Shown: piece after piece, positions 1,812-48,933 of the stretch
Layout of the letters: every line of letters begins with the position of its first letter
Position numbering within the stretch: position 1 is the first letter of the stretch
Source: the human T2T-CHM13v2.0 reference genome, Homo sapiens
Length of the DNA: 64,000 bases
Assembly (NCBI RefSeq): GCF_009914755.1
Contig: NC_060925.1
Reading direction: 5' to 3' (one strand)
Notes under the pieces: generated by a model
Told to the model about the DNA's origin: nothing
Databases searched by the model: none
Seen by the model: only the letters and a program-made list of their open reading frames with translations
Translations under genes and position numbers: made by a program

Positions 1812-4470
1812 ATCTGGATCTCCCAATGAACTACTTCCTGCCTCTGAGTAAAATGATAGCTCTCTAGCTATCCTTGAGAATGGGCAATTGTTATCCTTGC
1901 AGAATGGGTAGCCACAAAACAGTGGAGCTCACAGTAGAAGAGAAGATTTAAATATCCCCTTAGTTCGTTCTAGAAGTAAGTTTCGCATGAGAAGCCTGAC
2001 TCACTGAAAGGTCCATTTCTGAAGTAGCACCTCATTCCAGCACTTGCCAAAAACAGTCTGGAAAGTAGTAGATGATCTTCCTTATTGGTTTGCTCTCCAG
2101 AACACAGGAGACCTCTCCTGATCCAATCCAATCAAAACATTTATCATGTTTTGGACTGCCATATACAGTTGTGCAGATTGTGTACTGCACAAAGGTACCT
2201 GAAATGATGGTGCTAAAATCTTGTCCACATTCCTTTGCCAGTCGTGCACTCTGGTTCAGGGATGCTTATACCTGGAGCAAAAGGTTTCAATTTTCTCTGC
2301 ACAAAAGTGCTATCCACTTTCCCAAGCTGTTCACTGGAAAAAAGGGGTGTGTGTGGCATGGAGCAGGGCTAGGAGTTGGGGGAAATGACACATTGTCCTA
2401 ATTTGGGAAATTCAAGATTAAATAAACAAGATAAATGATAGTTGTTTTAATTTAAACTACAGTATAATTATTCTTTAATCTGGGATGGTCAAGAAGGCAC
2501 TATTAAAGGTATGGGATTCAAGCTGAGTCTTAACTGGTAAGTAGAATTTATATGGATGTATATAGGGCCTTTAGTCAATAAATATTTATTAAGTACATAT
2601 TATGTACAAGCTATGAAGCTAGACACTAAGAATATAAAACAAGTGAAATTTGGCCTGCGTCCTTAAGATGGTAACTGATACATAAACTCATAATAACAGT
2701 TATTCTGTGATAAACACTGTATGGGAGGCATAAACTGCACAGGGCACAGAGAAGAAAGAGTGGCTATTTCAGTAGAGCACATTCTTCCAAGTTTTGCAAA
2801 AAATAGTTGTCTATACCAAACAGCAACAAGGCATAATTCCAAAATGGGGTTCAAAATGTGCAAAAGTATTTTTTAAAATAATTCTACAATGTCTTCACCA
2901 AATTAAAAAGCTCTGTTGGCCTCTATAGCCTGTCTCTTATTTTCTTCATCCATTCGTCCTAGTCTTCATGACTATCCTCTCCACTTTCCTGATTGCAAAC
3001 TAGTTCACTATACTTCAGTGACACACATTAAACAACATAAGCATAAACATTTACAAAGTGTTCCTCCTACATCAGAATACACACATTTCAAAATAGTTGT
3101 AGTAACTCCCTCTGATATTCTTTAGCTCCTGAACCTGATGATCATTCTCATAATGTGCTAGCAAGGGAATTTCTGGGACATTTTTTACATCTTAATATTC
3201 AAACTACTCATACAGAGATTTTTTTTCTGTATGGATCTTCTTGCCTAGTAATATGATCACAATCTCATGTTACCAAGAAACACAAAATACAGTCAATCTG
3301 AAAAATTTTTGATTTCCATGAGTCCGTTCAATTCAATCTACGAAAAACCAATTTATTCCTACTCTACTGTAACTTCTGGGTAGATATAGAAGTGCTCAGG
3401 AAAACCTTTTCCTAAAAAAACTGCAGAAAGACCTATCACCTGCATGTCACATATTTTCATTTAGTTCATATGGCTTTCAATTCTGAATTTCATTGTAAAG
3501 TAGATTTTATTATACTCATTAGCCTCATCCACTAAAGCACAAGTCTAAACTGTGACATAAAAGCAAAATAACTCTTTTGATTACTACAGTATATATGTGA
3601 TTGCATCATATATCATTTTGATTGCACATCCAAATTGCATATTTTATATTTAAGTTCAAAGAGTTCTCCACGAGGCATAAATGAAAATTTATGAAGTATG
3701 AACAAAGTTTTACAAGACTAAAATTAAAATTATTTCTAACTAGACTAAAAACCAAGAATATAGCCCCAAGTTAACCTAATCACATCACAAGAATGATTCG
3801 CTACTCTCTATAATTCAGCCTCATAAGACCACCCCATCTGAGTGTTTCTTATATAGCTATGTGTGTCATTGGCTGGAACTTTCCTTATAGGTGGTTTGTA
3901 AGGAGTAAAACTTACTTCTATAGGTGTTACTGTCTTCTTTCCTATGCATTAGCTAAAATTCCATTAGATAAAAATAAATTAGAATCAAAGTAAATTATTA
4001 AAATGCTGCTATATTCAGAGTTTCTTAGCATCTTTGACCCCAGGAGCTGAATCTTGACCAATGTTAATCATATTTACTGGGTCTGCAGGAAAACATTTTT
4101 GCAAACAGCTAAACAGCTATAATAAATGGTTAAGATAACACTGGGGTAAAGAATCTCTGGCCACAGAATGGAGTAATACAAATTGCTCTTGTGATGTATA
4201 TCGTCCACATGCAGTTGCTTAAGATTCTGAAAAGGCCAGTACAAATGTGATGATCTGGGGTGAAGCTGTTATTTACTAAATCTAGTGGTTTTCAAACCAT
4301 GTTCTGTGTATCCATAAGCTTTCAGGCCCCTTCACTTCTTCAATTAGAGCAGTCCAGAATTCATCTGTTTTCCAAACTATAGTTCCATATAACATTTGTT
4401 TGTAATGTTGTAAGTTATAATGTTATATTGGTTTTTTTTTTAAGAAAAAAAGATTTAAAAGTCATTGCCT

Positions 4471-4662
4471 CAGTAAAAAATAATCATCCTTTGGTAATTA
4501 TCTATCACAACTAAACTTAATTTTAAATGTTTTCTTAATTCAGAGATACTTGTATCTCAGTGGTATCAGTAAAAAATAATCATCCTTTGGTAATTATCTA
4601 TCACAACTAAACTTAATTTTAAATGTTTTCTTAATTCAGAGATACTTGTATCTCAGTGGTAT
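4471..4662. repeat. Perfect 2 x 96-bp tandem duplication
   Basis: 4471-4566 is identical to 4567-4662 on manual comparison. Confidence 0.95.
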
Positions 4663-16592: not shown

Positions 16593-17031
16593 CAGTAACT
16601 CATCTTTACTAAGGAACTCCTCTACATCAAGCCCTGTTGTAGGGGTTTATGAACAATTACCTCAATTAATTCCTTAAGACAACCTTTAGTGAATACTACT
16701 ATTATTCCCTAAATGAGAAAAAAAGCTTGGAGGGGTTAAATGATTAAGCCAAGTGTATTAGCTTTGAGATGGGTTCATTTTCTGTTTCCATGGGTAGAGC
16801 TGTAAAAAGTCTTTTTTTCCCCTGAGAAAGTGGGCTTTCACAAAAAAACTCACAAAATATAGGTAAACCACCAGCTGTTTCCTGTTCTCCCAAGATTTAG
16901 TGGGGAAGAAAGGGAAGAGAATCTCTAGGGGAGAATCAAGCTAGAATTGCTCACCACTCTAGGCAGAATTCAATACTTATCAGAGGCAAAGACATTCTGA
17001 GAGCCTGTGAGTCCCAAAAGAAACTGGATCC

Positions 17032-17169
17032 AGCTGGACATGGTGGCTCACACCTGTAATCCCAGCTTTTAGGGAGGCCAAGGCAAGGCGGGAGGATCTC
17101 TTGAGCCCAGGAGTTAAAGACAAGCCTGGGCAATACAGGGATACCTTGACTCTTAAAAAAAAAAAAAAA
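17032..17169 (+). mobile_element. FLAM / Alu left monomer
   Basis: single monomer with A tail. Confidence 0.8.
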
Positions 17170-18932
17170 TCCTTCTTTATCTAGCTTGGGGAATGTTGGG
17201 GGTGGGGGTTTGGTCCTAGCACTTCCATCGACCGGCCTCAGAGGCACATCAGTAGTGGCATAACACCTGCTGACTCAGGCCATCCCAGAGAAATAGCCAT
17301 TGGACCCTCTCTTTAGGTGTAGTCCTGGCTTTTAATAAGAGAGTTTGGGCTACTGAAACGCAAGTAATTCATCAGTCCCTTCAAAGTATAGATAAGAGCC
17401 AGTCATAAACTTAATTTCATACCTAGCATTGGTAGTTACATTGAAACTGCAGTAATACAATCAAATTGCATTAGCCAGCTTTATATTTAAGACCTACTGC
17501 TTTAATTACTTTAAACAACACAGTCTTGTGTGGAAGCAAAGAAAGTCTTGCTATAAAGTGGCATTAGCTTAGGAAACCCCAGATTCTTTGAAGGAGACCG
17601 TTCTAAGAACTCCTACCAGAACCAAAGTCAAGCAGCCAAAAGGAAAAAAAAAGATAAAGCCCGGACTTCAATCCTTGTTAGATGGACTAACCCACTGAGC
17701 AGAAAAATCCCCAGTACAGAAAAATAACCCTAACGAAGATTAGGACAGAAATATTACCTTTGTATATAATGGGTCAACACGTTTACACACTCGTGGGCCC
17801 CAGCTATCATTTCAATCTTCACTTCCTTCATTATCATAGAAAGTAAAAAATCCCTTAATACTGCTGAGCTAAATGAATGTTGTGTCTAAGCTCCTAAGAA
17901 TCAATTTTTTTAAGTTTTCTTTCTACAGTGGCTAATTGGAGAGGAGTTAAGAGTTCAGACTCTGTAAGTAAAGATCTGATTTCAAATTCCATCCTGCCTC
18001 AGGCTGCCTGTGAGACTCTGGGCCGGTTGCCTTTCTAGGTGCCCAGCTTGCTCATCTGTCAATTGGAACTAACAACAGTGCTCATGGGGGTTGCTGTAAG
18101 GACGAAATAGGCCAGTGCCTGGTGCAATGGAAATATGCAATATGTGTTAAATGTTATAAATGCTAACACATGAAGTACTGAAAGGTAGGATGATGACTTT
18201 TGAATTTTGGTTTGTGTGGTTTTTCCCCTCATGAGTTCCAATCTGTTTGGCCCCTAATGGCAAACTCTATCAGGTTGTGAGTCCTTGTTAACTCCACCAA
18301 AAGCTGAGAGAGATAAATGGACCCTTAGCAGCAGAAAAATTGCCTTCTGAAATAACCTCTTCCTGATGCATCCAGCATTTATGTGCTGTCCTTTTTTCCA
18401 AGACAAAAAATTGCATGTTGGAATTGGATTGGAGACATTATCTCGTGATGATTAAGGGAGGTTATTACTACAACAGTTCATGAAATGAAAGCTACCTGCT
18501 TTTACCCAGGGAGCTCTTGAAAATAACCCTCTTTTTCCCCAGTGAATAGGCAAGGAAAAGCAAGATTCCAATAATGGATAGCATTACAAATCCTTTTTCA
18601 TGTACTCTGCTTATCTAAATTGGCACATGATGCCTGCCCACCATCTCTCAGAAATTGTGAGAGGTACTGACTCATCCATCAAGCCCCACCTAACAGCCTG
18701 GGAGGCACCAAGGAGGATATTTCTCTTTCTCTGCTGCCTGTTCCTCACCAAACTGAATCAGCATTTCAAGGAGCTCAATTCCCATTCTGAAAGGTAATAC
18801 CTTCTAAAGATGGGGACGGCAGCACTTATGGAAATTCTAACCCATCAGCTGAAAGATAGGCATGTGAAAGTTAGAGAGTTACCCCACAGTAACCTCCCCA
18901 AAAGCTCTCCATTTGAAAAAATTTTAATTTTA

Positions 18933-19287
18933 CATATATATGTATATACACCCACACATAAACACACATACATACACATATATGTGTGTATATCTATGTA
19001 CATGCATACATGTATGTGTATATGTGTGTATATATATGCATATATATATATATTGCCTTCTGGAAAACCTCTTCCTGATGCATCCAGCATTTATGTGCTG
19101 TCCTTTTTTCCAAGACAAAAAATTGCATGTTGGAATTGGATTGGAGACATTATCTCATGATGATTAAGGGAGGTTATTCCTGCAACAGTTCATGAAATGA
19201 AAGCTACCTGCTTTTACCCAAGGAGCTCTTGAAAATAACCCTCTTTTTCCCCAGCAAATAGACTATATATATACATATATGTGTGTG

Positions 19288-19326
<39 letters not shown>

Positions 19327-19516
19327 ATATATATATATGTATAGAGCCCGGACTTTAATCCTTGTTAGATGGACTAACCCGCTGAGCAGAAAAATCCCCA
19401 GTACAACAAAATAACCCTAAGGAATATATATATTTTTTCTATAGTGGCTAATTGGAGAGGAGTAAGAGTTCAGACTCTGTAAGTAAATATCTGATTTCAA
19501 ATTCCATCCTATATAT
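18933..19516. repeat. Composite locally templated insertion with (TA/TG/CA)n linkers
   Basis: three patches match 18339-18549, 17654-17737 and 17920-17995. Confidence 0.92.
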
Positions 19517-19825
19517 TTTCCCAATACTTCATTTATACTTGCCAAATTTTTTCTCTTCCCCAAAACTACCTTTGGGAAGGGATTAGGAATGAGTCCCTAA
19601 TTTAAGTCTTGCATTGTTTAAGCTTTAAATCAGGGCCGAATATTCTCTTAACTATGAATGGTCATTGAACAAGGAAAAACAACAGATACACAAACGTATA
19701 TGTATCTTGGAATGGGAAGGAATAATGAGGAAAAAAATAAAAATATAAAAGAAATGGATATAAACAAATTCCTTATAAAGTACCTATCAAGAACTTACAC
19801 TATACCAGGCATTCTTTTAGGTATC

Positions 19826-20048
19826 CAGGATTCCTCAACCTCAGCACTATTGACACTTTGGGCTAAATCATTCTTTGTTGTGAGGAAACTGTTCTGTGCA
19901 TGACAGGACATTCAGCGCCATCCCTGGCCTCTACCCACTAGATGTCAGCAGCACCCCTCACCCTCGCCAAGTTATGAGAAGCAAAACTGTCTCCAGACTT
20001 TGCCAAATATCCCCAGGGAATAAAATCGCCTCTGGTTACGAACCACTG
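19826..20048. mobile_element. MER20 (hAT-Charlie)
   Basis: ctcaacctcagcactattgaca..catccctggcctctacccactagatg..gtctccagac..gaaccactg. Confidence 0.85.
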
Positions 20049-28053: not shown

Positions 28054-31000
28054 CCAGCTTCTCTTGTGCTAATGCAGTCTTGCTTTCAGGCTTCTCTGAC
28101 CACCTCATAAACTAATACGCACTGAGATTTTTTTATTAATGCTGATAGAGATTATTATCACCACAGTAAAGTGATTAAGTCACTTCAAAAGATAAAGAAA
28201 GTAAAAATAAATCATTGCCTTATTTGATATTGTATTGAGGAACTTTAATAACTTGAATTTCATCTTCTATCATGGTATGGTGCTGCTTGTGAGTGTATTT
28301 GGGTCACTAATATGTTGGATCATCAATAACATATCTTTTTCCACTAGAATCTGATGACTACTTTATTTGTGCCTCACTGTGATTTAAACTTCTTATATAA
28401 GTTAACAAATTGCCTTAATTCTGCAAGAAAGTACAAGAAACAAATTTTATTTTCAGAGTATTTTATTACCTTGCTGTATCTTGTTTCTCTATATGTCTAT
28501 AGTTTCATTAATTTTATTTTCCTAATTTTTCTACATTTTAAAATAGAATGTTAGTTTATTTTATGTTTTCTATAACCTTTAACTTTGCATAGTGTTCCCC
28601 AACTTAGCATATTTATCTTTTCTATTTTCTATATATTTGCATTTCTCATTCTTTGCAAAATTTTTATAGCTTTATAGCTAACCAGCTATTTTAGCATTGA
28701 GTGGAAAATAACTTTAACACTTTTTTTCTACAAAAGTGATAGCTTCTCAATTTTAGATTTCTTGTTATCACTTAAATACTATATTCTAGTTATCATTTAT
28801 AAAGAATAAATAAGAACCTAACAAAATCAGTTATAATAGCTGTACTTACCTTGGCTAAAGATGTAAATCAAATTACCCTGACATACAATTTCTGTATGTT
28901 TGCTAGGGATAGTAATTTTAAATGTCTCTAATGGAAGGATTCTCATTAAAAAGCAATAAATATTAAGTACTGGCTAACTTCACAAGTCAAACTTGATAAT
29001 TCTATGGCAGTGTGGTAGTACCTGCACAATTACCTACACAATTCAATAATGTTTCTTCCTCTACAACCCATAAGCCCAATATTAGGTAGCTAATAATACA
29101 GTAAAATGAACCTTCTCCCATTATTTTAAGTAGTTAAAGTAGGTATCCCAATGATAAATTTAATTACCTGAAGAATTTCTAAGCTTTTGGAAAGTATACA
29201 CGTATACAACTTCCTCAATCAGAGTTGAGTGATATGTCCCACAATGGAAAGTTGCAGATACTAAGTTTCTTTCCATCTTAAGAGAGAGCTTTGGTCACTG
29301 ATCAAACTTTGCCATCTTAAACTCATTTTAAAAACAAAAAACACAGAAGACTTAGAAGAGAGGAACACACTGTTTACGGTCAATAGCAGTGACATTATCC
29401 ACTATAAAACCTCCCTTTTCTGAACTTGGATATTAGCCAGCTCCTCCTGAACACCCTTATTTCTTCTCCTCTAACCTTGTCAACACATTTACCCCATGGA
29501 AAATGACAGGAAGTGACTAACATTTCCAGACAACACTAATCATGCCCCTGAACTAAAATAATGAAAACAGGAAAACCTATTCCAGACAAAGTAACAATAC
29601 AGAGTTCTGTATTATCAATCAAAGTATCTTATAAACAGAATGCTCCAAATTCCTTGCCTTCCACCATGATATTGTTTTACATTGCTGTTTTCCAATTCGG
29701 CATACAGACTACAGAGCTGATGTGTATTTTTTAAGTAGGTTTTAAAAATAAGTAAGTCACAGTGTCATATGCCCTCACATGCCATCCATATACAAAGAAT
29801 ACATAACCACCTACGTACTTCCATTTCACAAACACCAAGTGGGTTGAGCTTCTCCCCATAACTCCCCCAAAAAACGCTTATGATACTTGAAAACTCACCA
29901 TTTAGGTCAATTCCTTTATTTATGGTATAAATCCCCTATTTAATATAAATAGCCCTGGTAGGCATAATAGTTAAGAATTGTTAGTCTCTTTTCCCTTGGT
30001 ATAAATATGGTTATCAATACCTTATCTAAGAGCAATTTTAATTTGGAAAACAGCGTGAAGAAGAAAGAAATGGAAAAAGGTGGACCCTGGAGATTCAAAA
30101 GACAAGATTTTTTTAGTCAAAATTTTGAACAGAGTAAGACATGACAGAAAAATTCAGGCAACATTATGTCCATCTGCTTAATGTAAATATAACATATTCA
30201 TAGGATAAAGCTCAATGCCAGACACTTCCACCATTGCATGGCCCCAGCCAGCTTTGCATGGGAACTCACTGCTACCCCTACCAATCAGGGGGTAGTAGTT
30301 GGCTTTCTTTGGTAGTCCTCACCAACCTATTCTTGTACTTCCAGCTCTATTCTGTCCTCTTAGAGGTGTCAGTGGCATTCCAGGATGAAGTGGTGGGGAT
30401 CTCAGCTCTGGGAGTTCATATGCTACTGGTGCTGATTGCCAACCTGCAACAGCCATTAGAGTCCAAGGGATAATGAGAGTAAGGAGACTTCTATCAAGTT
30501 CAGCCAGCTGAAACCATGCATCTAAAATGCTATGGGAAGAAGAGGCAGGGATCAGACAGGAGCAGAAAATAGAAGTAAAAAAGAGAGCTGATGGCCCAGG
30601 GTTTTTAGCTGCTAAACCAAGCCTTCTATTGCCAACATGCTCTGGCCCCATGCATTTACTGGAACTCACACTACCTACTTGCCATAGGCTTGAAAAAAGG
30701 AAAGAAAGGAAAGCAGACTCTAGCAAACTTCTCTGAATGTCCACAGCACACAGGATGTGCCTGATTTACGGAATCTTACAGTGAGGAGTGACTGTAAGAA
30801 AAAGCAATTTGCCCGTGACTTATAAGAGACTCAAAAAGCCCCTCACTCCTACTCTCTTTTGTTGGTAGGGGCAAGATAGAGGTCCATAAAATCCAACAGT
30901 ATAAACTTCATAAAGACTTGCCTTCTGCCTTCTGCCTTCTGTTCACCTTCTGCTATGTAACTACAGCCTCTGCCAGCAATCGAGACCTGCTTGCTACAGA

Positions 31001-34091: not shown

Positions 34092-34398
34092 TCTTAGTAA
34101 CTATAATAGTACAGAGACAAGGTACTGCCTTCTGTTCACCTTCTGCTATGTAACTACAGCCTTTCCAGCAATCGAGACCTACTTAGCAGGTATTTTGTAC
34201 CTGAGTACAAACCATGGGTTATAACTGAACACAATTTGCTGCTCATATTGGTCCAGGTTTGGCTATTAAAATCTCATTCAGTTGGCTCCTGTGCCCCTTT
34301 GACTTATCCATATAAGTGATTTTGCTTAGTTACTTCCTTACTTTCTGGCATTACAAGATTACCCAGTCTCAGCTTCTTAGTAACTATAATAGTACAGA
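34092..34398. repeat. Composite locally templated insertion flanked by 24-bp direct repeats
   Basis: patches match 30932-30992 and 35910-36091. Confidence 0.9.
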
Positions 34399-36377
34399 CA
34401 GCCAAAGGTTGTTACCATTAACTTATCACACAGTCCTCATTGCCCTCTGACCAGTGAGTGGACTGTCCAGTTCCAGAGTCCCATTCAGAGCATCTGCTCT
34501 GTAGAGCCACTCTTGGTTCCAACAAGAAGTACAGCCTGAAATTAGGACTTGGGTACAGTAGTTTGAGAAGTGATCCCAGGAGTAGGAAGAAAAGCACAGG
34601 AAAGAATGGTAAATATAATGGTATGTAATAGAAGTCAATGCTTTAGGCACCAGAGACTGAATTTTACTATAATCTCAAAAAGAGTGTACAGAAAGCAGCT
34701 AACATTGTCTGTCTGAAGGAGAGAACTTTAGGGCATTTATCCACCAGCTCAGGTCCCTCATTGAATGAGGGAGCATAAATTCCCCCACACTTCTGGATTG
34801 CACTTGCATGAGAGTCACACAGGTTGCCTTAGTGCCCAGAGTGAAAAGAAGAAAGAAGCACGGAACATGCCTCTAGAAGGATGGTAAGTCTGAACTCACT
34901 TGGAACTGTCCACTGCAGCTATGGTGCTGCAAAAATGGACCATGGGGAAATGACACAGGCACCAACAGTGTCTGCCACACTAGCTGTATAACCCTGGGCA
35001 ACAAACAACTTACCTGAGCCTGTATCCTTATCTATAAAATGAGGTACATGTCACCTGTCTAACACAGTCATGTGAGGACTCAATTTGTCAGCGAATTAAA
35101 AGAACCAGGTGTCCTGCCCATCATCAAGTCTGGCTGAGGTGTCACACATGAAGGTAGACACCATATACCCTTATCATTTCATATCTTGGTGTTTTGTATG
35201 TTTAGTGCTCATTTTAGGTCAATGGGGCATTTCAAGTTAAGTGGAGTAGAAGTAAGTAAAGGAAAAGTTTGGGGAAGGGTAAGTGAAATAATAGTTCAGG
35301 GTATTTTTTTCCCAGAGACATTCAGTTGGTCCAGCTCTATTTGTTGAAACACTATTATTTTTCACATTGAATTACCTGGACCCGTTTGTTAATTAGTTGG
35401 TCCTAGAAGTGAGATCCTACATATGGAGTCTCTGCTCTATTCCATTCATCTGCATATCTCTCATGAATACTGCACACTTTATTTATACTGGTTAATATTG
35501 TAGTTTTATAATAAATATTGGAATCGAGTCGGGTTAGGTCCTCCAATCTTATCTTGTTTTTTTAATACACTTTAAAAACAGTTTTAGATTAACAGAAAAA
35601 TTGAGAAGACAGCACAAAATTACCACATACCCTGTACCCAGATTTTCCTATTTTAACTTCTTACATTAGCATTGTACATCTGTTACAATTAACAATCCAG
35701 TAGTGATACAATATTATTAACTAAAGTCTCAAACTTTATTCAGATTCCCTTAGTCTTTAGCTAATGTCCTTTTTCTGTTCCAAAATCCCAAAAAGAAAAC
35801 CATGGTACTTTTAGTTGTCATGTCTCCTTTTGCTCTGCTTGGCTGTGACTCTTTTTCAGACTTTCCTCGTATTTGGATGACCTTGACAGTTCTGAAAATT
35901 GCTGAGTATGTATTTTGTACCAGGGTACAAACCATGGGTTATAATCCAACACAACTTGCTGCTCAAGTTGGTCCAGCTTTGGCTGTTGAAAGCTCATTCA
36001 GTAGGCTCCTGTGCCCCTTTGACATATCCCTGTAAGTGATTTTGCTTTGTTTTTTCCTTACTTTCTGGCACTACAAGATGACCCAGTCTCATCCTATGTA
36101 TTTCTTACCCCAGTTCTGGAATCAGCAACTTATCCAAGAGTTTCTGTTGCTTTTATTGGAGAATGATACAGAAAACAAAATCTGGGCACTAGGCATGCTC
36201 ATTGCTACTTTGTCTTTTTAAATATTGTCTTGACCATTTAAGGTTCTTTGTCTTCCCATGTGAATTTTAGAATCAGTCTGTAAACCCCTTCAAATGAGGC
36301 TGCTAGGCTTTTGATTGGAATTAAATTTATAGATCAATTTGGAGAGAATTTTCATTCTAATATTGTTTGCTGATCCA

Positions 36378-41613: not shown

Positions 41614-41984
41614 GGCCAGGTGTGGTGGTTCACGCCTGTAATCCAGCACTTTGGGAGGCTGAGGCAGGCGGATTGCTTGAGGTCAGGAGTTCGAGGCCAG
41701 CCTGGCCAACATGGTGAAAGCCCGTCTTCACTAAAAATACAAAATTTAGCCAGGAGTGGTGGCACATGCCTGTAATCCCAGCTACTCAGGAGGAAGAGGC
41801 AGGAGGATCACTCGAACCCGGGAGGCAGAAGTTGCAGTGAGCTGAGCCCACAGTAAGTTTGTCAAACGGGTCAAAGTTGTCTGCAGCTCCACTTAGCCTA
41901 GAATCCAGTCATGCCACTGCACTCCAGCCTGGGCGACAGAGCGAGACTCCATCTCAAAAAAGGAAAAAAAAAAAAAAAAAAAAA
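41614..41984 (+). mobile_element. Alu (AluS-like) carrying a 62-nt non-Alu insertion at 41847-41908
   Basis: Alu dimer, A tail, TSD aaac(c/g)ctaac; right arm interrupted at gag|..|tcatgccactgc. Confidence 0.92.
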
Positions 41985-48122: not shown

Positions 48123-48933
48123 ACAGTAAGCCATAATTCAGTGGTCATCAAAAGCCCCACATATATAAGCCTATCAAGGATCAAAAGTAGCAGGACAGAT
48201 ATGTACTACTCAGCTCCTGAAGCCACCCCAGGCTCTCCTAAGTTTACAACATATACACTAGACAACAAAGAATTTTTGTTTTTAGAAGGCCACCTTCACT
48301 TATTTTGGTGGATGAAAACCAGGCAGGACACAAAGGACATTTAGCCTAGAATCCAGGCTAAATGATACCCATTCCCTACTAATTTCTCCACTCCTAATGG
48401 TGGCTATAGGTATCCTGACCCTGCCTGGCACCAAAACAAACCTTGTCACTAAAGAGCAAAAGCAAAATCAGTCCTTCCTATCTGGCTTGCTCCTAGCTAC
48501 ATAATTATGCACATGACAACCTAAATGATAGCACCCAGTAAATTTGTCAAATAGGTCAAAGTTGTCTGCACCTCCATCCAGTGTTGACTTTGAGTCTCTT
48601 CTTCCTCCATCTCAGGGTTTCCTCAGCTCTAGGCATTCAGAGTTCCCAGTCCATACTGGCTCTAAGTCAGACCAGCAAAGTGAAAGTACTTACAAGGAAG
48701 ACTCCCTGCCTAAAACCTAAAACCTTTCCTTTATATCTTATTCACAACTTCTAATAGTAACAAATGTAAAAAAACAAAGGCAGAAAATCACAATTTCTAG
48801 CACTGGCTGAGTGATCACAAGTTTTTAGTGAGCTAACAATGTAGCAGTCAGCCATTACTATCGGGAAGCGCATTCTTTTCCAATGGTTTGTATAGAAGTG
48901 CTTCTACATAACATGGCTTTTTTACCAGGTTAC

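What the first reader, a model, noticed from the sequence alone, without database searches (positions are those of the whole stretch)
18933..19516. Patchwork array: three copies of nearby unique DNA separated by (TA/TG)n microsatellite linkers
Seen: the order is microsatellite 18933-19051, patch A, microsatellite 19264-19340, patch B, (TA)n, patch C, atatat. Patch A (19052-19261) copies 18339-18549 with about 8 differences in 210 nt. Patch B (19341-19424) copies 17654-17737 with about 6 in 84. Patch C (19436-19510) copies 17920-17995 with about 3 in 76. All patches are in direct orientation but out of genomic order (donors 0.7, 1.7 and 1.5 kb upstream), and each begins at a 2-3 nt AT-rich microhomology (at, ata, ttt). 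The flanks (ttttacatata... / ...atatattttccc) suggest the original site was a short AT tract. Inference: one repair event in which a 3' end cycled between slippage synthesis on the (TA)n tract and invasion of nearby templates, as in polymerase-theta templated insertion or MMBIR/FoSTeS. The result is a linker-spacer array recording local DNA. Repeat annotation would report only the microsatellites.
Basis: partly seen in the sequence, partly recalled or inferred. Interest (0 to 1): 0.85.

Follow-up and report, generated by a model that had tools for sequence, protein, structure and literature searches.

The report
Local DNA patches inside a microsatellite
A TA/TG repeat in an intron of the human PALMD gene carries three short copies of unique DNA from about a kilobase upstream, most likely a repair scar of a kind already described in primate genomes and not a new genetic system.

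Summary
Window 18933-19516 reads: microsatellite, patch A, microsatellite, patch B, (TA)4, patch C, (TA)3. All three patches are direct copies of unique intronic DNA 0.7-1.7 kb upstream, 93-96% identical. In the whole assembly each patch matches only itself and its donor, so it is neither a dispersed repeat nor chance.

[quoted passage not shown] 2009, PMC2671141) and germline multi-template MMBIR-type insertions (Osia et al. 2021, PMC8421209). Both pipelines would miss a microsatellite acceptor. Patch lengths of 78-210 nt argue against polymerase theta (2-35 bp reported).

B and C almost certainly arrived together, with a TA filler between them. Whether A came in the same event is likely but unproven. 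Divergence of 4.8%, with CpG decay on both copies, indicates an old event of roughly 10-25 Myr. No primate outgroup was available.

I found a second two-donor insertion in the same window and two more microsatellite-embedded local patches on chr2, so the kind recurs.

Verdict: a well-preserved member of a known kind. Interest is modest.

The parts
18933..19051 (+). Linker 1: the left part of the acceptor microsatellite. Degenerate compound repeat, CA-rich left half and TA/TG-rich right half, ending in (AT)7.
   Evidence: (I5 quasi-palindrome, 74% complementary). Masked as repeat at 18908-19059. Folds to a -25.2 kcal/mol hairpin, but 18 of 200 shuffles fold at least as well.
19052..19261 (+). 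Patch A: direct copy of 18339-18549.
   Evidence: (D2), 4 and 10: 203 of 211 columns identical; only 2 genome matches. 2-nt AT microhomology at the 5' junction.
19262..19340 (+). Linker 2: TA/TG microsatellite containing a pure (TG) run.
   Evidence: TG period 2, 23.5 copies, 91% matches. At most 75% ungapped identity to any register of linker 1 (D1).
19341..19424 (+). Patch B: direct copy of 17654-17737 (extendable to 19427 / 17740).
   Evidence: (D3), 4 and 10: 78 of 84 identical; only 2 genome matches. 3-nt ATA microhomology at the 5' junction.
19425..19432 (+). Linker 3: 8-nt TA filler between B and C.
19433..19510 (+). Patch C: direct copy of 17917-17995.
   Evidence: (D4, D5), 4 and 10: 75 of 79 columns identical; only 2 genome matches.
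19511..19516 (+). (TA)3: presumed right-hand remnant of the acceptor repeat, followed by unique flank.
17654..17740 (+). Donor of patch B. Unique, unmasked DNA in PALMD intron 2.
17917..17995 (+). Donor of patch C, 176 nt downstream of donor B.
18339..18549 (+). Donor of patch A. It ends 383 nt upstream of the repeat.

Best explanation
A DNA break or stalled fork inside a pre-existing TA/TG compound microsatellite in PALMD intron 2 was repaired by copying. A 3' end ending in TA repeat units annealed at 1-3 nt of AT-rich microhomology to unique DNA 0.4-1.3 kb upstream, on the same or the sister chromatid. It copied 78-210 nt, let go, and re-engaged. This left three direct patches interleaved with TA/TG repeat.

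[quoted passage not shown] B and C were laid down in one event, with a brief return to TA synthesis between them. A most probably belongs to the same event, for example with one broken end copying A and the other copying C then B.

The event is old, roughly 10-25 Myr, and the array has since decayed neutrally while the repeats kept slipping.

Shown: local templating, uniqueness of donors, junction microhomology, age signal. Inferred: the break, the enzyme pathway, and the single event.
For: - **Unique local donors.** Each patch has exactly one other copy in the genome, 0.7-1.7 kb upstream and direct. Donors and patches are unmasked.
- **Fit to the described class** (PMC2671141, sections 6-8): donor within 5 kb (66% under 3 kb, peak about 1.2 kb), acceptor mean 162, median 147, maximum 619 nt, microhomology 2-9 nt, filler 1-68 nt, and chimeric two-donor acceptors.
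- **Germline multi-template events exist.** Events from 3 to 5 templates are documented (PMC8421209, section 10 and discussion passage).
- **TA repeats are known break sites.** They extrude cruciforms, are cleaved and are repaired through microhomology (PMC13645644, passages).
- **Clustering.** At the background density of local unique patches seen in 264 kb, three independent patches within 460 nt has P about 1e-5.
- **B-C collinearity** has P about 0.01-0.03 under independence. All three donors in one orientation within 896 nt has P about 0.004-0.04.
- **Divergence** is homogeneous across patches (chi-square p = 0.48). Of 4 CpG positions, one decayed in the patch and one in the donor, so time has passed on both copies.
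- **Recurrence of the kind.** There is a two-donor insertion with a perfect 24-nt target-site duplication at 34092-34398. On chr2, L028 and L031 carry local patches between (TA)n tracts.
Against: - No outgroup was available, so the empty site, the single-branch origin and the donor-to-acceptor polarity are inferred and not seen.
- The homogeneity test has little power: 8/211, 6/84 and 4/79 differences.
- The 79-nt linker 2 exceeds the 1-68 nt filler range reported for the class. It can be explained equally well by two separate insertions into one long repeat.
- Microhomology is short (2, 3 and 1 nt) and sits in AT-rich context. The exit junctions show none against the donor flanks.
- Differences are not significantly clustered (P = 0.18), so there is no positive signature of error-prone synthesis.
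- The hairpin potential of linker 1 is not above its composition (z = -1.45).
Confidence: 0.6

Rival explanations
1. Recurrent capture at a fragile repeat: two separate repair events (A alone, then B+C, or the reverse) hit the same long TA/TG microsatellite at different times. Linker 2 is simply the stretch of the original repeat between the two insertion points.
For: - TA repeats are recurrent break sites (PMC13645644, passages).
- Single patches sitting inside (TA)n tracts exist elsewhere (L028).
- This explains linker 2 without invoking 79 nt of filler.
- Raw divergence is 3.8% for A against 6.1% for B+C.
Against: - The A versus B+C difference is not significant (Fisher p = 0.34).
- All donors share one orientation and lie within 896 nt (P about 0.004-0.04 if independent). 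A distance preference of the mechanism would soften this.
Confidence: 0.25
2. Polymerase-theta-mediated end joining made the patches: iterative microhomology-primed synthesis and dissociation at a resected break.
For: - Entry junctions have 1-3 nt of microhomology.
- TA-repeat breaks are reported to depend on Pol theta MMEJ, with templated small duplications (PMC13645644).
- The 8-nt TA filler is of the right size.
Against: - Reported Pol theta templated insertions are 2-35 bp, and 5-15 bp in a reporter (PMC7454005, passages).
- The patches here are 78, 84 and 210 nt.
- Pol theta may still have done the final joining.
Confidence: 0.08
3. A tandem duplication or triplication of a roughly 1.3-kb unit (B..C..A..383 nt..repeat) was later eroded by several deletions, leaving only A from one copy and B and C from the next.
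For: - The order A,B,C is a cyclic permutation of the genomic order B,C,A.
- Linker 2 would then be the duplicated copy of the repeat.
Against: - It needs two duplications and at least four deletions, each ending exactly at a repeat boundary.
- Patch-to-linker transitions are abrupt.
- No remnants of 17741-17916, 17996-18338 or 18550-18932 are found in the array (one search returns only the three patches).
- Linker 2 does not carry the characteristic interruptions of linker 1 (at most 75% identity).
Confidence: 0.04
4. RNA-templated repair or retro-copying: pieces of PALMD intronic pre-mRNA served as templates, which would explain why all patches are in the sense orientation.
For: Donors, acceptor and patches all lie in one intron and are all direct relative to transcription (program annotation).
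Against: - No poly-A tails at patch ends.
- The comparable two-donor locus at 34.1 kb draws on one donor inside PALMD and one beyond its last exon.
- L031 is inverted.
- The described class includes inverted copies and is attributed to DNA templates (PMC2671141).
Confidence: 0.02
5. Not a real local event: the patches are members of a dispersed repeat family, or the array is an assembly artefact.
For: None found.
Against: - 2 of 2 genome matches per patch.
- 4.8% divergence with CpG decay on both copies is not what a collapse or mis-join gives.
- Reads and other assemblies were not available, so the artefact is not formally excluded.
Confidence: 0.01

Closest known systems
[quoted passage not shown]
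   Same: - Insertions of at least 50 nt with one other copy in the genome.
- Donor on the same chromosome, mostly under 3 kb away.
- Similar sizes (mean 162, maximum 619 nt).
- Microhomology, filler and sometimes a target-site duplication at the breakpoints.
- Chimeric acceptors from two donors.
- Neutral decay after insertion.
   Different: - Three donors here; the paper reports chimeras of two.
- The material between patches is TA/TG repeat of 8 and 79 nt, against a filler range of 1-68 nt.
- The acceptor is a microsatellite, whereas their pipeline only detects acceptors that interrupt a transposable element, so this locus could not be in their set.
- Their Table S1 and Figure S1 are supplements I could not open.
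Germline MMBIR-type templated insertions (MMB-TI), 'complex' class (Osia et al. 2021, PMC8421209; read: section 10 part 1 and passages)
   Same: - Several template switches in one event (3 templates in their example, up to five overall).
- Microhomology at most junctions.
- The events are present as inherited variants.
   Different: - Their events are read-length scale (threshold 25 bp), detected in short reads.
- Many involve inverted templates or quasi-palindromes.
- Microsatellite calls were removed as noise.
Polymerase-theta templated insertions (PMC7454005, passages)
   Same: Microhomology-primed copying of nearby sequence, with repeated dissociation and re-priming.
   Different: Reported length is 2-35 bp. 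The patches here are 78-210 nt.
TA-repeat fragility (PMC13645644, passages)
   Same: TA repeats extrude cruciforms, are cleaved and are repaired through microhomology. This gives a reason why the acceptor is a TA-rich repeat.
   Different: That work concerns cancer ecDNA and somatic breaks. It does not describe captured patches of unique DNA.
'Doublets', short local paired duplications (Thomas et al. 2004; known to me only through its citation in PMC2671141 section 14 and from recall)
   Same: Short duplicated segments lying close together in mammalian genomes.
   Different: Defined statistically as pairs, without an acceptor structure or microsatellite context. I did not read that paper.

Membership tests
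Repair-mediated duplication (proximal capture) | Inserted segment of at least 50 nt found at only one other place in the genome | tested here: met
   2 of 2 matches each (self and donor); the donor kilobase matches only itself and the three patches.
Repair-mediated duplication (proximal capture) | Donor on the same chromosome within 5 kb, not tandem (more than 50 nt away) | tested here: met
   Start-to-start distances are 712, 1687 and 1516 nt.
Repair-mediated duplication (proximal capture) | Breakpoint signatures of repair (microhomology 2-9 nt, filler, small deletion) and no poly-A tail | tested here: met
   Microhomology of 2, 3 and 1 nt at entry junctions, TA filler between B and C, and no poly-A at patch ends. 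A deletion at the acceptor cannot be assessed without the empty site.
Repair-mediated duplication (proximal capture) | Empty orthologous site in an outgroup species | not testable with these tools
Repair-mediated duplication (proximal capture) | Acceptor interrupts an annotated transposable element (an operational criterion of the 2009 pipeline, not of the mechanism) | tested here: not met
   The acceptor is a TA/TG microsatellite.
MMBIR / FoSTeS-type multi-template insertion | Two or more template switches joined at microhomology within one event | tested here: inconclusive
   B-C linkage is supported (P about 0.01-0.03 under independence). A's linkage is likely but unproven. Microhomology is short.
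MMBIR / FoSTeS-type multi-template insertion | Replicative, RAD51-independent synthesis by the relevant polymerases | not testable with these tools
   This needs genetics or biochemistry.
Polymerase-theta templated insertion | Short templated insert (2-35 bp reported) | tested here: not met
   Patches are 210, 84 and 78 nt, against PMC7454005 passages.
Tandem / segmental duplication | Contiguous collinear second copy of the source segment | tested here: not met
   Only three separate pieces (373 of the 896 nt spanned) are copied, and not in linear order.
Dispersed repeat / transposable element | Many copies genome-wide; terminal repeats, target-site duplication or poly-A | tested here: not met
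   No Rfam family in 17000-20000 (0 matches).

The most novel reading that the evidence does not exclude
TA-rich microsatellites are preferred acceptors for captured proximal DNA, and a single repair event can alternate several times between repeat synthesis and ectopic copying. The result is 'repeat-patch-repeat' arrays.

Both published detection strategies exclude this context: TE-interruption pipelines cannot see it, and read-based templated-insertion callers filter microsatellites as noise. Such arrays would therefore be a systematically hidden class of perhaps hundreds of loci. Their patch boundaries would preserve the entry and exit points of germline template switching at structure-forming repeats.
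Probability: 0.3. Interest if true: 0.5.

Novelty: new member of a known kind. Interest (0 to 1): 0.3.

Why it matters
It is an unusually legible germline repair scar. It has three unique-DNA patches with identifiable donors, and a collinear pair (B and C) that shows a return to repeat synthesis within one event.

It also points to a blind spot. Short local duplications whose acceptor is a microsatellite are invisible to TE-based pipelines and are filtered as noise by read-based callers. Yet a small probe found two more on chr2. A systematic catalogue would test whether structure-forming TA repeats are hotspots for proximal capture in the germline. It would also provide natural junction data for distinguishing SDSA- or MMBIR-type copying from polymerase-theta joining.

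For PALMD itself nothing suggests a functional effect. The array is deep in intron 2 and overlaps no annotated element.

Tried and rejected
- **Dispersed repeat family: rejected.**
- **Error-prone-synthesis signature: not significant.** Differences within 1 nt: 2 pairs observed against 0.78 expected, P = 0.18. Within 3 nt: 4 against 2.3, P = 0.19.
- **Hairpin or cruciform potential of the linkers: not above composition.** Linker 1 gives -25.2 kcal/mol, z = -1.45, with 18 of 200 shuffles as good. Linker 2 gives -5.9 kcal/mol, z = -1.12, with 24 of 200.
- **RNA families: none.** 0 matches in 17000-20000.
- **Background survey, cut short.** I intended about 1.6 Mb and obtained 200 kb plus the window. 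The 264 kb holds only about ten true dinucleotide repeats of at least 40 nt by my eye, among 43 hits of a loose regex. That is too few for a rate per microsatellite.
- **Genome-wide pattern probe.** (TA)6, then 45-105 nt containing a GC-rich pentamer, then (TA)6 gave 660 matches per strand against 712 for the reversed control, so the bare pattern is not enriched. Only the first 100 rows were listed, covering 14 distinct loci. I chose 6 of those 14 by eye for unique-looking spacers:
  - 2 have a significant non-adjacent local donor (L028, L031).
  - 2 are palindromic or adjacent-flank copies (L027, L030).
  - 2 have none (L029: best score 36 against a shuffled maximum of 38; L032).
  - The other 8 were not fetched because they had tiny spacers or Alu/L1 fragments. 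This is not a frequency estimate.
- **Primate comparison, human pangenome and reads:** not available.
- **Literature.** Six searches were run. None listed a paper describing unique-DNA patches interleaved with microsatellites, but I read only the four papers cited, and their supplements were closed.

Full report
**What is there.** Window 18933-19516 lies in PALMD intron 2 (chr1:99,528,933-99,529,516). It reads, left to right:
- a degenerate compound repeat, 18933-19051, CA-rich then TA/TG-rich and ending in (AT)7;
- patch A, 19052-19261;
- a TA/TG repeat with a pure TG run, 19262-19340;
- patch B, 19341-19424;
- eight bases of TA, 19425-19432;
- patch C, 19433-19510;
- (TA)3 and then unique flank.

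Repeat detection and pairwise alignment confirm that A copies 18339-18549 (203 of 211 columns identical), B copies 17654-17737 (78 of 84) and C copies 17917-17995 (75 of 79). All are in direct orientation.

**Is it more than chance or a repeat family?** Yes.
- Searching the whole CHM13 assembly with each patch returns two places only, the patch and its local donor, at E from 5e-26 to 7e-92.
- Searching with the donor kilobase 17600-18600 returns itself and the three patches and nothing else.
- Donors and patches are unmasked. The mask covers only 18908-19059, and no feature other than the PALMD transcript is annotated there.
- No Rfam family matches 17000-20000.

**How unusual is the clustering?** I compared the window plus 200 kb of adjoining sequence against itself (264 kb, 21% masked). 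I kept pairs that are unmasked, at least 50 nt long, at least 85% identical and within 5 kb.
- Seven pairs remain: the three of this array, two at 34.1 kb, one 56-nt pair at window-equivalent 100381 / 103026, and a perfect 96-nt tandem duplication at 4470-4662.
- At the density of the other dispersed patches (3 in 264 kb), three independent patches within 460 nt has a window-corrected probability of about 1e-5.
- The three patches are therefore mechanistically linked, either by one event or by a strongly preferred site.

**Age.**
- Patch and donor differ at 18 of 374 columns, or 4.8% (Poisson 95% interval 2.9-7.6%). That is 16 substitutions, Jukes-Cantor 4.4%.
- The three patches do not differ significantly from each other (chi-square p = 0.48).
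- Across the two copies there are four CpG positions. One is kept in both, one is CG in the donor and CA in the patch, one is CG in the patch and CA in the donor, and one is a transversion. Decay on both copies means real elapsed time, not only copying errors.
- The differences are not significantly clustered.
- With the clock used by Pace et al. (2.2e-9 per site per year; PMC2671141 section 8), 4.4-4.8% between two copies gives about 10-11 Myr. With a slower clock of about 1e-9, which is my recollection, it gives about 22 Myr.
- I therefore predict the array is shared at least with the African apes. How much deeper it goes is open.

**What known thing does it match?** Pace, Sen, Batzer and Feschotte (2009, PMC2671141; I read the abstract, sections 6, 8 and 14, and passages) described more than 1,000 'repair-mediated duplications' in the human genome.
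- 824 have the donor within 5 kb, 66% within 3 kb, with a peak near 1.2 kb.
- Acceptor length has mean 162, median 147 and maximum 619 nt.
- Breakpoints show microhomology of 2-9 nt, filler of 1-68 nt, deletions of 1-15 nt or target-site duplications of 4-21 nt.
- 20 acceptors are chimeras of two donors, and 5 of those have both donors local.
- They attribute these to synthesis-dependent strand annealing at double-strand breaks.

Every measurable parameter of patches A, B and C falls inside these ranges.

Osia et al. (2021, PMC8421209; section 10 part 1 and passages) document inherited MMBIR-type templated insertions in humans. They include 'complex' events from three templates (33 of 103 and 26 of 99 calls in the two subjects) and, in their discussion, up to five templates, with microhomology at 138 of 155 and 135 of 148 junctions.

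Both approaches are blind to this locus. The first requires the acceptor to interrupt a transposable element. The second discards microsatellite calls.

**Why a TA repeat?** A 2026 paper (PMC13645644, passages only) summarises that TA repeats extrude cruciforms, are cleaved by structure-specific nucleases, and depend on microhomology-mediated joining. That work concerns cancer ecDNA.

Linker 1 is a quasi-palindrome (I5) and can fold into a roughly 115-nt hairpin of -25 kcal/mol. Dinucleotide shuffles fold nearly as well (18 of 200), so this is a property of its composition.

Polymerase-theta templated insertions are reported as 2-35 bp, and 5-15 bp in a reporter assay (PMC7454005, passages). 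Patches of 78-210 nt fit the proximal-capture class instead. I therefore favour SDSA- or MMBIR-type copying. Polymerase theta may have done the final joining, and no sequence test can settle this.

**One event or several?**
- B and C are collinear in the donor, 176 nt apart, in the same orientation, and joined by 8 nt of TA. Under independent captures with donors uniform within 1.5-5 kb and random orientation, this has probability 0.008-0.028.
- B and C therefore came in one event. Within that event the growing strand left one donor, added TA, and entered the next donor. The alternative, one continuous 342-nt patch later deleted internally, is less economical.
- For A the evidence is weaker. 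All three donors share one orientation within 896 nt (P = 0.004-0.04 under the same null). A distance preference of the mechanism would produce part of that.
- The order A,B,C is a cyclic permutation of the genomic order. That fits a two-ended repair in which the left end copied A (the donor nearest the break) and the right end copied C and then B, with the two new strands pairing through repeat sequence.
- I put the single event at about 0.6 and two events at the same repeat at about 0.25.
- Whether the 79-nt linker 2 was made in the event, was part of the original repeat, or grew later cannot be told. It is only 75% similar, or less, to any register of linker 1.

**Eroded tandem duplication.** This rival needs a triplication of a 1.3-kb unit and at least four deletions, each ending at a repeat edge. 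No trace of the intervening donor sequence is present in the array, and patch edges are abrupt. I give it about 0.04.

**The kind recurs.**
- In the same window, 34116-34374 is an insertion bounded by a perfect 24-nt direct repeat (34092-34115 and 34375-34398). It is built from 9 nt of filler, a 60-nt patch copied from 30932-30992 (95.1%) and a 190-nt patch copied from 35902-36091 (87.4%). The two patches overlap by 3 nt. Part of the second patch belongs to an old dispersed repeat, but the local donor is by far the best match in the genome. This is a two-donor capture without any microsatellite.
- Elsewhere, I fetched six loci chosen by eye from the 14 distinct loci listed by a pattern probe.
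  - chr2:67.93 Mb (L028) has a 53-nt spacer between (TA)n tracts. It is a direct copy of DNA 804 nt upstream: 46 of 51 identical, score 75 against a shuffled maximum of 35, and only 2 genome matches.
  - chr2:60.23 Mb (L031) has a 40-nt inverted copy (38 of 40) of DNA 1.2 kb downstream, followed by other sequence.
  - Two others are palindromic or adjacent-flank copies, and two have no donor.
- This is a hand-picked handful and not a rate.

**Verdict.** It is a clear new member of a described kind, proximal-capture or multi-template insertions, in a context that existing catalogues miss. Interest is modest (0.3). The bolder reading, that TA repeats are a hidden hotspot class for such arrays, remains open at about 0.3.

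Noticed in passing
window 34092-34398: A second multi-donor local insertion. A perfect 24-nt direct repeat (34092-34115 and 34375-34398) flanks 9 nt of filler, a 60-nt copy of 30932-30992 (95.1%) and a 190-nt copy of 35902-36091 (87.4%). The two patches overlap by 3 nt. There is no microsatellite. The flanking repeat has 0 of 24 differences while patch 2 has 24 of 190, which is unexplained.
   Followed up: partly
window 4470-4662: A perfect tandem duplication of a 96-nt unit (2.01 copies, 100% identity) in unmasked intronic DNA, a few tens of bases upstream of a CA-rich tract. At that identity it is probably very young and possibly polymorphic.
   Followed up: partly
chr1:99,610,381-99,610,436 and 99,613,026-99,613,081 (in L010): A single 56-nt direct pair at 92.9% identity, 2.6 kb apart, in unmasked DNA. 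It may be another small proximal duplication. Which copy is the acceptor was not worked out.
   Followed up: no
L028:3015-3068 (chr2:67,933,514-67,933,567): A 53-nt patch between (TA)n tracts, copied directly from 804 nt upstream (about 90% identity). It is unique in the genome apart from its donor. Same architecture as the finding, but with one patch.
   Followed up: yes
L031:3021-3060 (chr2:60,230,7xx): A 40-nt inverted copy (38 of 40) of DNA about 1.2 kb downstream, sitting between (TA)n tracts. It is followed by about 30 nt of other sequence, including an A10 run and a short snap-back-like self-complementary stretch.
   Followed up: partly
L027:2950-3150 (chr2:51,687,8xx) and L030:2910-3210 (chr2:77,425,9xx): (TA)n tracts lie at the centre of larger quasi-palindromes. 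In L027, short spacers on one side have mirrored inverted counterparts on the other (15 of 15 and 13 of 15). In L030, a 34-nt perfect copy of the adjacent flank lies inside a long inverted repeat. These may be palindromic AT-rich structures or palindromic transposon remnants. They were not resolved.
   Followed up: partly
window 41851-41891 and 48536-48576: A 41-nt direct pair at 90% identity, 6.7 kb apart, spanning the FRRS1 3' region. It was not examined.
   Followed up: no
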